Positions 12,201 to 15,200 of a stretch of DNA of 64,000 nt are shown in pieces. Every line of letters begins with the position of its first letter. Position 1 is the stretch's first letter. The DNA is taken from positions 7,232,001-7,296,000 of the forward strand of contig CP086569.2 in the NCBI GenBank assembly GCA_009914755.4. The letters run 5' to 3'. Position numbers: made by a program. Origin of the DNA: the human T2T-CHM13v2.0 reference genome, Homo sapiens.

Positions 12201-15200
12201 AAGGTTGAAGGTTATTAATTGAGGTTGTTGTGCATACAGATGAGTTTATTTGCCATAAAGTATTAACTCTAGAATTGCCCAAATTCCCTTTCAAACTGGC
12301 CTACTTGATAAAATGTTATAGTAAATCTCCTTCCTTCCATGTGTTGCTTGTCCTGTATCGCATATACCCCACTAAACAAACCTCAGACTTGTTTTCTGGG
12401 CAACTCAAGCTAGGACAAAGGGAAAGGGAAGCGTAATACTATTTATTCAAAGGGGTTTATGTGTGCATATGTATAATATACATGATGTATATTATGTATA
12501 ATATACATGATGTATATTATGTATAATATACATGATGTATATTATGTATAATATACATGATGTATATTATGTATAATATACATGATGTATATTATGTATA
12601 ATATACATGATGTATATTATGTATAATATACATGATGTATATTATGTATAATATACATGATGTATATTATGTATAATATACATGATGTATATTATGTATA
12701 ATATACATGATGTATATTATGTATAATATACATGATGTATATTATGTATAATATACATGATGTATATTATGTATAATATACATGATGTATATTATGTATA
12801 ATATACATGATGTATATTATGTATAATATACATGATGTATATTATGTATAATATACATGATGTATATTATGTATAATATACATGATGTATATTATGTATA
12901 ATATACATGATGTATATTATGTATAATATACATGATGTATATTATGTATAATATACATGATGTATATTATGTATAATATACATGATGTATATTATGTATA
13001 ATATACATGATGTATATTATGTATAATATACATGATGTATATTATGTATAATATACATGATGTATATTATGTATAATATACATGATGTATATTATGTATA
13101 ATATACATGATGTATATTATGTATAATATACATGATGTATATTGTGTATAATATACATGATGTATATTGTGTATAATATACATGATGTATATTGTGTATA
13201 ATATACATGATGTATATTGTGTATAATATACATGATGTATATTGTGTATAATATACATGATGTATATTGTGTATAATATACATGATGTATATTGTGTATA
13301 ATATACATGATGTATATTGTGTATAATATACATGATGTATATTGTGTATAATATACATGATGTATATTGTGTATAATATACATGATGTATATTGTGTATA
13401 ATATACATGATGTATATTGTGTATAATATACATGATGTATATTGTGTATAATATACATGATGTATATTGTGTATAATATACATGATGTATATTGTGTATA
13501 ATATACATGATGTATATTGTGTATAATATACATGATGTATATTGTGTATAATATACATGATGTATATTGTGTATAATATACATGATGTATATTGTGTATA
13601 ATATACATGATGTATATTGTGTATAATATACATGATGTATATTGTGTATAATATACATGATGTATATTGTGTATAATATACATCATGTATATTGTGTATA
13701 ATATACATCATGTATATTGTGTATAATATACATCATGTATATTGTGTATAATATACATCATGTATATTGTGTATAATATACATCATGTATATTGTGTATA
13801 ATATACATCATGTATATTGTGTATAATATACATCATGTATATTGTGTATAATATACATCATGTATATTGTGTATAATATACATCATGTATATTGTGTATA
13901 ATATACATCATGTATATTGTGTATAATATACATCATGTATATTGTGTATAATATACATCATGTATATTGTGTATAATATACATCATGTATATTGTGTATA
14001 ATATACATCATGTATATTGTGTATAATATACATGATGTATATTGTGTATAATATACATGATGTATATTGTGTATAATATACATGATGTATATTGTGTATA
14101 ATATACATGATGTATATTGTGTATATTATACATATACATAGTATATGTATTGGCATATATGTATTGGCATAATATATCCTTGGCATTCATCAGCTTGTAG
14201 CTATACCGCTTCAGCATCTACCTCTGTCTTCACATGGCTGTCTTCCCTCTGTGTCTCTGTGTCTCTAAAACTCTCTATCCTTATAACAATATAAGACATT
14301 GAATTTAGGGTATACCATAATGTAATGTGACTTACCTTAACTTGATTATATTTGAAAAGTTTATATTTCCAAATAAGGTTATAGTCACAGGTCCTCAGGG
14401 TTATTTCAACATAGTTTTTTTTTTTTTTTTTTTTTTTAGAGAATTCAACCAACTACAGGGTTATTACCAAATAATTATTAGAATGTTGACACTAATTCCT
14501 ACAAACCAAAGCTTCTACTAAAATAAAGAAAGATGAGGTAGCAAGGTAACAAATGTATTACTCAGGTAAACCACCAAATCTCAGGACCTGGAAGCAGTCA
14601 TGAGATTTGGTAGTTTACCTAAGTAAATAATTCCAAAGAAATTATCTCCCTAACCACAATTAAGATGGTTCTTAGATTAGGCATATCCTGCTAATGTTGT
14701 AGCTTTGCTTTGCTATTCACACTTCCGGAGCTGAAAATACCTTAGGGGCCTCATCCATTAAGGAAAACAAAAATAAAAGGGGCAGTACATCAGAGTTGTT
14801 TTCCTACTTCAAATGACTGGATTCTGAGCTTCCCCGCTATCTCAACGTTCTCTGAGGTGGAGTGCTTAGCATCCAAACAACGTGCAAATGCATACTGGGA
14901 AACACTAAGCTTCTTTCTTACCAGAAACACCACTGAGAAGAAAACAAGGGAGTTTCTCTATGTTGGCAAACGATTTGCTACACAGGATATGTGAAAGCAA
15001 AGAGATGTTGCTCCACTCTCACAGACTTCAGCACTACAAGTATGTGCTGACATGCAGACCAGCTCTCAGTTCTAAAACATAGAACCCTCTAGCAGACAGG
15101 CTATCTAGAAAAAGTACAAAAGTTGAAAGTCTTTTCACGTGGCCTCTTAAACACACATGAGTTTTGTTGTTGTTTGTTTCTTTTGTTTTGTTTTGAGACG

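What the first reader, a model, noticed from the sequence alone, without database searches (positions are those of the whole stretch)
12469..14172. 1.7-kb array of a 25-bp AT-rich palindromic minisatellite with block-wise variant structure (PATRR-like)
About 66 near-perfect copies of TGTATAATATACATGATGTATATTA. Each unit holds two interleaved near-palindromes (TGTATA-A-TATACA and TATACAT-G-ATGTATA), so the array can extrude long hairpins or cruciforms. The variants are not interspersed but form contiguous blocks: about 27 ATTATG units (12469-13140), then about 22 ATTGTG units (13141-13680), then about 13 units carrying an extra G-to-C change CATCATG (13681-14015), then about 4 CATGATG units again. 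This records stepwise expansion of already-mutated units by slippage or unequal exchange. Such AT-rich palindromic arrays are typically hypervariable and fragile, and hard to assemble. The copy number shown is probably one allele of a polymorphic VNTR. All the long minus-strand ORFs here (up to 214 aa) are repeat translation artefacts.
Basis: partly seen in the sequence, partly recalled or inferred. Interest (0 to 1): 0.6.

Follow-up and report, generated by a model that had tools for sequence, protein, structure and literature searches.

The report
Human Y-chromosome minisatellite MSY1 (DYF155S1)

Summary
The array is real: 66 exact 25-bp units at 12470-14119 and a degenerate tail to about 14172. 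There are only three unit variants, in four blocks of 26, 22, 14 and 4, with no other substitution or indel.

It is the human Y-specific minisatellite MSY1 (DYF155S1). The published flanking primers Y1B+, Y1A+ and SM1 match exactly and only once, and they bracket the array in the right orientation. The two published block-junction primers match exactly at the two internal block boundaries. In MSY1 notation the allele is (3)4 (1)14 (3)22 (4)26.

The literature already documents the 25-bp unit, AT-richness, hairpin potential, block structure, a range of 48-118 repeats and a mutation rate of 2-4% per generation. It attributes mutation to purely intra-allelic processes (slippage, and gene conversion between sister chromatids), because the locus is haploid.

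The PATRR/fragile-site analogy fails its defining criteria: 81.6% AT, arms only 83-85% Watson-Crick, and a tandem array rather than one palindrome. The minus-strand ORFs are artefacts.

One side observation: a human-derived metagenome contig carries both flanks, about 99.5% identical, with a single type-4 unit. It may be a homologue in the pre-expansion state.

Novelty: already known. Interest: low.

The parts
12221..12241 (+). Binding site of the outer MSY1 flanking primer SM2 (2 mismatches to the primer as printed: GCATAC here, GACTAC in the paper)
   Evidence: primer from PMC2599865
12400..12427 (+). [quoted passage not shown]
   Evidence: primer
12470..14119 (.). MSY1 array proper: 66 exact 25-bp units, 81.6% A+T. 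The allele is (3)4 (1)14 (3)22 (4)26 when read from the Y1A+ side (window minus strand).
12470..13119 (.). Block of 26 type-4 repeats (TGTATAATATACATGATGTATATTA)
   Evidence: Type assigned from junction primer JUN-3,4R, which matches exactly at 13109-13146 on the minus strand.
13120..13669 (.). Block of 22 type-3 repeats (TGTATAATATACATGATGTATATTG). Its minus strand has no stop codons and is the source of the 188-214 aa artefact ORFs.
13670..14019 (.). Block of 14 type-1 repeats (TGTATAATATACATCATGTATATTG)
   Evidence: Junction primer JUN-1,3F matches exactly at 13652-13694 on the plus strand.
14020..14119 (.). Distal block of 4 type-3 repeats, which makes the modular class 3,1,3,4
14120..14172 (.). 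Degenerate tail. The first 14 nt (TGTATATTATACAT) repeat the start of the unit with one mismatch; two copies of a 14-bp motif (TATATGTATTGGCA) follow.
14200..14227 (-). Binding site of the standard MSY1 flanking primer Y1A+ (exact, unique)
14681..14702 (-). Binding site of the outer MSY1 flanking primer SM1 (exact, unique)

Best explanation
The array is one allele of MSY1 (DYF155S1). The literature describes MSY1 as the only highly variable minisatellite of the non-recombining human Y chromosome, and a cited title places it in Yp11.2 between DYS458 and AMELY. It has no known function; it is a neutral, self-perpetuating tandem repeat.

How it behaves. Steps 1 and 2 come from the literature on this locus. 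Step 3 is partly my inference.
1. Each 25-bp unit, and runs of units, can fold into AT-rich hairpins when transiently single-stranded. This favours misalignment by whole units, so alleles gain or lose 1-3 units at about 2-4% per generation, and units of any length other than 25 bp are never seen.
2. The locus is haploid, so the only partner for repair is the sister chromatid. Synthesis-dependent strand annealing between sisters misaligned by one or a few units produces 'boundary switches' and single-unit type conversions. With no exchange between alleles, variant units are not shuffled. Each base substitution that arose in one unit was amplified locally into a contiguous block.
3. The most likely history is type 4 (ATTA), then type 3 (A to G), then type 1 (G to C, arising inside the type-3 block and leaving 4 type-3 units distal to it). 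This gives the present (3)4 (1)14 (3)22 (4)26.
For: Identity:
- Y1B+ matches exactly at 12400-12427 (+), Y1A+ at 14200-14227 (-) and SM1 at 14681-14702 (-). SM2 matches at 12221-12241 (+) with 2 mismatches. Each site is unique in 64 kb and the primers converge across the array (primers).
- Junction primers JUN-1,3F and JUN-3,4R match exactly and uniquely at the G/C and A/G block boundaries.

Agreement with published properties:
- 25-bp unit.
- 66 copies, within the published 48-118.
- Variants arranged in blocks.
- No units of any length other than 25 bp.
- Hairpin predicted.

Structure:
- Searches show strong hairpin and fold-back potential.
- Both variant positions sit at or next to a hairpin loop or mismatch site, so they do not destroy the fold.

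Mechanism:
- Single-molecule sperm and blood data and the SDSA model are in PMC2599865.
- Single-unit gain and loss dominate.
- Type 4 was proposed as the source unit by Jobling et al., as cited in PMC2897807.
- A homologous contig with a single type-4 unit between the same flanks fits this.

Host: human/primate, from Alu-derived ORF translations and near-identical contigs in human gut metagenome assemblies.
Against: - The Y-chromosomal location was not tested here. No human reference was available, so it rests on the literature.
- The printed SM2 primer differs from the window at two adjacent bases.
- A+T is 81.6% in the array, against the '75%' quoted.
- The block order 3,1,3,4 does not occur among the 159 haplogroup-R1b3 alleles tabulated in the supplement. 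I could not find a held paper that lists this class. I recall such codes from Foster et al. 1998, from memory and unverified.
- The order of origin of the types and the role of hairpins in vivo are inferences, not demonstrations.
Confidence: 0.95

Rival explanations
1. A PATRR-like or fragile-site element: a cruciform-extruding AT-rich palindrome whose main consequence is double-strand breakage, translocation or cytogenetic fragility.
For: - The whole array is self-complementary, with 827-nt arms at 85%.
- Around the type-3/type-1 boundary, arms of 350-374 nt contain only Watson-Crick (83%) and G.T (16%) oppositions.
- Single-strand folding has z of about -16.
- Shanks et al. themselves suggest that cruciforms could stall forks and start breaks.
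Against: - The PATRR criteria (above 90% AT; nearly perfect palindrome without spacer; found at translocation breakpoints) are not met. AT is 81.6% and Watson-Crick pairing is 83-85%.
- It is a tandem array whose mutations are small (1-3 units) and balanced between gain and loss. They are not the large central deletions typical of long palindromes.
- FRA16B fragility needs up to about 2000 copies, against 7-12 in normal alleles. MSY1 alleles stay at 48-118.
- No held paper links MSY1 to fragility or translocation.
Confidence: 0.05
2. An assembly artefact: copy number or block order produced by collapse or mis-joining of reads in a difficult repeat.
For: Perfect 25-bp repeats over 1.65 kb cannot be assembled from short reads. 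The short-read metagenome contigs recovered here all stop outside the array.
Against: - 66 units is within the published 48-118, near the mean of about 70.
- The block sizes (14 type 1, 26 type 4) are of the order seen by MVR-PCR.
- The junctions are exactly the published junction sequences.
- There are no gaps, Ns or odd-length units.
Confidence: 0.03
3. A paralogue of MSY1 elsewhere in the genome rather than the Y locus itself.
For: - Homologous contigs with about 99.5% identical flanks exist (L003-L006).
- The DYF prefix of the locus name suggests a sequence family (my understanding of the nomenclature, not checked).
Against: - The one homologue that spans the site has one unit, not an array. 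Its SM1 site is broken by a 7-bp insertion.
- The window has all primer sites intact, plus the published repeat types and junctions.
- The literature describes the amplified array as Y-specific.
Confidence: 0.02

Closest known systems
MSY1 (DYF155S1), human Y-specific minisatellite (Jobling et al. 1998; Shanks et al. 2008, PMC2599865)
   Same: Flanking primer sites, 25-bp unit, sequences of repeat types 1, 3 and 4 and of their junctions, copy number within range, block (modular) organisation, AT-richness, hairpin potential.
   Different: Nothing essential; this is that locus. The particular allele, (3)4 (1)14 (3)22 (4)26, is of modular class 3,1,3,4. This differs from the 1,3,4 class that makes up 91% of haplogroup R1b3.
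AT-rich minisatellites of the rare fragile sites FRA16B (33-bp unit) and FRA10B
   Same: AT-rich minisatellite able to form secondary structure that can stall replication.
   Different: The unit sequence and length differ. Fragility there requires expansion to about 2000 copies, whereas MSY1 stays at 48-118 copies with small, unbiased steps and no reported fragility.
Palindromic AT-rich repeats (PATRR11, PATRR22, PATRR17, PATRR8)
   Same: AT-rich, self-complementary, predicted to form hairpins or cruciforms.
   Different: PATRRs are single, nearly perfect, spacerless palindromes of several hundred bp with more than 90% AT that mediate recurrent translocations. MSY1 is a tandem array with 81.6% AT and 83-85% Watson-Crick self-complementarity.
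GC-rich autosomal hypervariable minisatellites (MS32, CEB1, MS205)
   Same: High germline mutation rate. Gene conversion by synthesis-dependent strand annealing is invoked.
   Different: Those are GC-rich, diploid, driven by exchange between alleles near recombination hotspots, and have interspersed variant maps. MSY1 is AT-rich, haploid, mutates only within the allele, and is organised in blocks.

Membership tests
MSY1 (DYF155S1) | Array bracketed by the published flanking primer sites Y1A+/Y1B+ (nested) and SM1/SM2 (outer), converging | tested here: met
   Y1B+, Y1A+ and SM1 are exact and unique; SM2 has 2 mismatches; order and orientation are correct (primers)
MSY1 (DYF155S1) | 25-bp repeat unit, with no units of any other length | tested here: met
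   Period 25, 0% indels, 66 exact 25-mers; the property is stated
MSY1 (DYF155S1) | Repeat-type sequences and block junctions identical to the published type 1/3 and 3/4 junction primers | tested here: met
   JUN-1,3F is exact at 13652-13694; JUN-3,4R is exact at 13109-13146
MSY1 (DYF155S1) | Copy number within 48-118 | tested here: met
   66 units; range
MSY1 (DYF155S1) | Variant repeats organised in blocks (modular structure), with type 4 at the end next to Y1B+ | tested here: met
   Four homogeneous blocks, with type 4 next to the Y1B+ flank; property stated
MSY1 (DYF155S1) | AT-rich (about 75% A+T) and predicted to form a hairpin | tested here: met
   81.6% A+T in the array and 76.3% over the SM2-SM1 amplicon; unit hairpins of -4.7 to -5.6 kcal/mol and long fold-backs
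MSY1 (DYF155S1) | Male-specific location on the non-recombining Y (Yp11.2) | not testable with these tools
   No human reference was available. The location comes from the literature only (title of Chang et al. 2007).
MSY1 (DYF155S1) | Hypervariable among males (length and structure) | not testable with these tools
   Only one allele is in hand. The supplement lists 159 differing R1b3 alleles. No second array allele was recovered.
PATRR | More than 90% AT | tested here: not met
   81.6%; criterion
PATRR | Nearly perfect palindrome without spacer, several hundred bp | tested here: not met
   Arms are 83-85% Watson-Crick, reaching about 99% only if G.T is counted; it is a tandem array of a 25-bp quasi-palindrome
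PATRR | Lies at breakpoints of recurrent or non-recurrent constitutional translocations | not testable with these tools
   None of the MSY1 papers read or listed mentions translocation breakpoints in the array
AT-rich fragile-site minisatellite (FRA16B/FRA10B type) | AT-rich minisatellite with secondary-structure potential | tested here: met
AT-rich fragile-site minisatellite (FRA16B/FRA10B type) | Unit related to the FRA16B 33-bp repeat ATATATTATATATTATATCTAATAATATATC/ATA | tested here: not met
   A different 25-bp unit (against the sequence quoted)
AT-rich fragile-site minisatellite (FRA16B/FRA10B type) | Expanded alleles (up to about 2000 copies) that show as a cytogenetic fragile site | not testable with these tools
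   This allele has 66 copies and the published maximum is 118; no fragility is reported in the papers read

The most novel reading that the evidence does not exclude
Two small points go beyond what I could find in the held literature.

1. A homologous human locus, represented by contig OUNP010153180.1, keeps both MSY1 flanks at about 99.5% identity with a single type-4 unit followed by the 14-nt partial repeat. This may be the pre-expansion state. The first duplication would then have arisen by slippage between two 14-nt direct repeats 25 bp apart, with type 4 as the founder unit. The variants in the right flank form a mosaic in which all four combinations occur among five sequences. This would imply gene conversion or recombination between MSY1's flank and its homologue(s).

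2. The type 3 to type 1 change (G to C at the centre of TATACAT-G-ATGTATA) is what a hairpin-loop inversion or template switch would produce. It turns each type-3/type-1 boundary into the best fold-back centre in the array. That might make those boundaries preferred sites of breakage.
Probability: 0.3. Interest if true: 0.3.

Novelty: already known. Interest (0 to 1): 0.12.

Why it matters
MSY1 is a classic locus. [quoted passage not shown] It has been used for paternal-lineage 'digital codes', pedigree and forensic work, and as a natural experiment on purely intra-allelic minisatellite mutation. Recognising it here matters mainly for curation:
- The region should be labelled MSY1/DYF155S1 rather than flagged as a new PATRR-like element.
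- The long ORFs should be ignored.
- The window can be assigned to human Yp11.2.

A complete sequence of an allele, here (3)4 (1)14 (3)22 (4)26, does add something. It confirms at base level that there are no cryptic variants beyond the MVR types. The possible single-unit homologue could help date and explain the birth of the array.

Tried and rejected
Searches that found nothing:
- Exact unit in the full text of papers: none.
- Rfam over the whole window: none.
- A 39-nt unit-spanning pattern in metagenome and prokaryotic genome contigs: none.
- The array tail pattern in genome contigs: none.
- Pfam on the 214-aa repeat ORF and seven other long ORFs of the window: none.
- Homology search with the repeat-encoded peptide: none. 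So no other array allele, ape orthologue or paralogous array could be recovered.
- Exact-product look-ups for the repeat ORF and five flank ORFs: empty.

Searches that found little:
- Two look-ups gave only short human-derived contigs that stop outside the array.
- Jobling et al. 1998 is not held. The type definitions were therefore inferred from primer sequences and pairings in Shanks et al. 2008.
- Searches for DYF155S2, and for MSY1 together with chimpanzee, gave nothing useful.

Explanations considered and rejected:
- Coding potential.
- PATRR membership.
- Membership of the FRA16B repeat family.
- Assembly collapse.
- Contig L003 being a k-mer collapse of this allele. Its junction ATTA|TGTATATT does not exist in the window, and its flank differs by 3 substitutions and 3 indels per kb.

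Full report
OBSERVATION

The sequence at 12470-14133 is a 25-bp tandem array: 66.6 copies, 99% matches, no indels, score 3041 (sequence read). Parsed in phase from 12470, it consists of:
- 26 exact copies of TGTATAATATACATGATGTATATTA (12470-13119)
- 22 of TGTATAATATACATGATGTATATTG (13120-13669)
- 14 of TGTATAATATACATCATGTATATTG (13670-14019)
- 4 more of the ...CATGATG...ATTG form (14020-14119)
- a degenerate tail to about 14172

Apart from the two variant positions (unit positions 15 and 25) there is no substitution or indel in 1650 bp. The unit, at up to 3 mismatches, occurs nowhere else in the 64-kb window; 66 hits are found against 0 expected. Its block counts are each within one.

STRUCTURE

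The unit matches its own reverse complement, rotated by 21 nt, at 22 of 25 positions (A form) or 20 of 25 (G and C forms). None of 5000 composition-matched shuffles reaches 21. As a result the whole array is a quasi-palindrome, with 827-nt arms that are 85% complementary.

As single-stranded DNA, 300-nt stretches fold at -91.5 and -92.6 kcal/mol, against about -42 to -43 for shuffles (z of about -16). Single units form 10-bp hairpins of -4.7 to -5.6 kcal/mol. Position 25 (A/G) is the closing pair next to the loop of one hairpin. Position 15 (G/C) is the unpaired centre of the other (TATACAT-G/C-ATGTATA).

Position 15 is opposed to itself in a fold-back, so G-type units opposite C-type units pair where G/G or C/C would clash. 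Around the G-block/C-block boundary, arms of 350-374 nt contain only Watson-Crick (83%) and G.T (16%) oppositions.

IDENTITY

A 25-bp, AT-rich, hairpin-forming minisatellite with variants in blocks recalled the human Y minisatellite MSY1 (my memory). I tested this against Shanks et al. 2008 (PMC2599865), which prints the primers. Results in the window:
- Y1B+ matches exactly at 12400-12427 (+).
- Y1A+ matches exactly at 14200-14227 (-).
- The outer primer SM1 matches exactly at 14681-14702 (-).
- SM2 matches at 12221-12241 (+) with two adjacent mismatches.

Each site is unique, and the primers converge across the array.

The 3' parts of the two block-junction primers also match exactly and uniquely. 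JUN-1,3F lies at 13652-13694, across the G/C boundary. JUN-3,4R lies at 13109-13146 on the minus strand, across the A/G boundary.

From the primer pairings described in the paper, JUN-1,3F with Y1A+ measures the type-1 block and JUN-3,4R with Y1B+ measures the type-4 block. I therefore infer:
- type 4 = ...ATTA
- type 3 = CATGATG...ATTG
- type 1 = CATCATG...ATTG

Read from the Y1A+ side, the allele is (3)4 (1)14 (3)22 (4)26, or 66 repeats. A different unit phase would move one unit between adjacent blocks.

Published properties agree with the window:
- 25-bp unit, and 7-8 variant types known.
- 48-118 repeats, with a mean of about 70.
- AT-rich. The paper gives 75%. I find 81.6% in the array and 76.3% over the outer amplicon.
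- Variants in blocks, no units of any length other than 25 bp, and a predicted hairpin.

The title of Chang et al. 2007, cited, places MSY1 in Yp11.2 between DYS458 and AMELY. I could not test the chromosomal location directly.

The host is a primate. Alu-derived translations appear in the ORF list, and contigs from human gut metagenome assemblies are nearly identical to the window.

HOW IT WORKS

MSY1 has no known function. What is understood is its mutation process, which comes from the literature, not from this window.

It lies on the non-recombining Y and is constitutively haploid, so the inter-allelic exchange that drives GC-rich autosomal minisatellites is impossible. Measured mutation is 2.7% in sperm, 1.9% in blood, and 3-3.8% per generation in pedigrees. 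Changes involve 1-3 units with no bias toward gain or loss. There are also 'isometric' events, namely boundary switches and single-unit type conversions.

The authors propose hairpin-assisted slippage for simple length changes. For the rest they propose synthesis-dependent strand annealing between slightly misaligned sister chromatids, possibly started by fork stalling at secondary structure.

Dominance of single-unit gain and loss, with no exchange between alleles, explains why each variant stays in one contiguous block. Jobling et al. proposed type 4 as the source unit, as cited.

My inference from the block order is 4, then 3 (A to G), then 1 (G to C arising inside the type-3 block).

PATRRs are defined as several hundred bp, more than 90% AT, nearly perfect palindromes without spacer, and located at translocation breakpoints (PMC4940405). 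Here AT is 81.6%, Watson-Crick complementarity is 83-85%, and the object is a tandem array. The PATRR label fails two tested criteria.

FRA16B is a 33-bp AT-rich minisatellite that becomes fragile at up to about 2000 copies, against 7-12 copies normally (PMC2875025). MSY1 shares the general class (AT-rich, structure-forming minisatellite). It does not share the unit, the scale of expansion or any reported fragility.

The ORF remark is right. Only the minus strand of type-3 units lacks stop codons in all frames, so the ORFs simply span the 22-unit type-3 block. They have no Pfam match and no homologue.

THE ALLELE

None of the 159 haplogroup-R1b3 alleles in the supplement has the 3,1,3,4 order. 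Their blocks average 16, 39 and 18 units, against 14, 22 and 26 here, plus the 4 distal type-3 units. The donor Y is therefore probably not R1b3 (inference). I recall 3,1,3,4 codes from Foster et al. 1998, but could not verify this in the held library.

A SIDE FINDING

Searching the array tail in metagenome contigs returned one contig, OUNP010153180.1 (L003, 1034 bp). It contains:
- 61 nt identical to the left flank
- exactly one type-4 unit
- the degenerate tail
- about 945 bp of right flank

Its junction ATTA|TGTATATT does not exist in the window allele, so it is not a collapse of this array. Its flank differs by 3 substitutions, a 7-bp insertion inside the SM1 site, a 1-bp indel and a G-interrupted poly-T tract. 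That is far more than the other human-derived contigs differ elsewhere in the window, which is one internal difference in 2.6 kb.

Three more gut-metagenome contigs (L004-L006) cover the right flank and show a mosaic of the same variants. All four combinations of the 7-bp insertion and the 14983/14990 variants occur. L004 is also about 8% divergent upstream of 14480.

This points to one or more homologous loci, on X, on Yq or elsewhere, with exchange between them. I could not resolve which. If the single-unit copy is ancestral, the array was born by slippage between the two 14-nt direct repeats, TGTATAATATACAT and TGTATATTATACAT, which lie 25 bp apart, and type 4 was the founder.

VERDICT

The locus is the long-known MSY1, so novelty is nil and interest is low.

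Noticed in passing
L003 (OUNP010153180.1) 1-1034; corresponds to window 12409-12494 joined to 14120-15052: A contig from a metagenome collection (source sample unknown; nearly identical to the window's human flanks) carries both MSY1 flanks with a single type-4 unit instead of the array. 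Its right flank differs from the window by 3 substitutions, a 7-bp insertion in the SM1 primer site, a 1-bp indel and a G-interrupted poly-T tract. It is probably a homologous locus, possibly in the pre-expansion state; its chromosomal origin is unresolved.
   Followed up: partly
L004-L006 versus window 14195-15462: Human gut metagenome contigs covering the right flank show a mosaic of the L003 variants; all four combinations of the 7-bp insertion and the 14983/14990 variants occur. L004 is about 8% divergent upstream of window 14480 and nearly identical downstream. This suggests several homologues with gene conversion between them, or chimeric contigs.
   Followed up: partly
window 12221-12241: The SM2 primer as printed in PMC2599865 (GAGGTTGTTGTGACTACAGAT) differs from the window (GAGGTTGTTGTGCATACAGAT) at two adjacent bases. 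This is either a typographical slip in the paper or a real variant.
   Followed up: no
window 42477-42832 and 42800-43476: A complex 41/78/119-bp tandem repeat lies next to a GC-rich stretch (52.7% GC) that has overlapping 127-172 aa ORFs on both strands and no Pfam match. From memory this looks like an LTR12 (HERV9 LTR) element. ORFs around 40.4-48.2 kb also gave no Pfam hit.
   Followed up: partly
window 5879-5908, 27035-27077, 54985-55116, 56512-56552, 61016-61085: Several uninterrupted microsatellites are present: (GT)15, (AG)21.5, an impure (TC)66, (AC)20.5 and (TTCC)17.5. If the window is Yp11.2, these are candidate polymorphic Y-STRs close to MSY1.
   Followed up: no
window 55528-55668: A 69-bp tandem duplication (2.0 copies, 94% identical) with internal 33-36-bp sub-periodicity.
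   Followed up: no
window 34090-34314 and 49407-49631: A pair of 225-nt direct repeats, 80% identical and 15.3 kb apart, brackets the GC-rich LTR-like region. They could be LTRs or interspersed repeats of one family.
   Followed up: no
window 14180-14420: The right flank of the array, including the Y1A+ site, resembles an old mammalian LTR-type interspersed repeat (MaLR/MLT1-like, from memory) and ends in a poly-T tract at 14414-14438. The array thus seems to have arisen in AT-rich low-complexity sequence at the edge of an ancient repeat.
   Followed up: no
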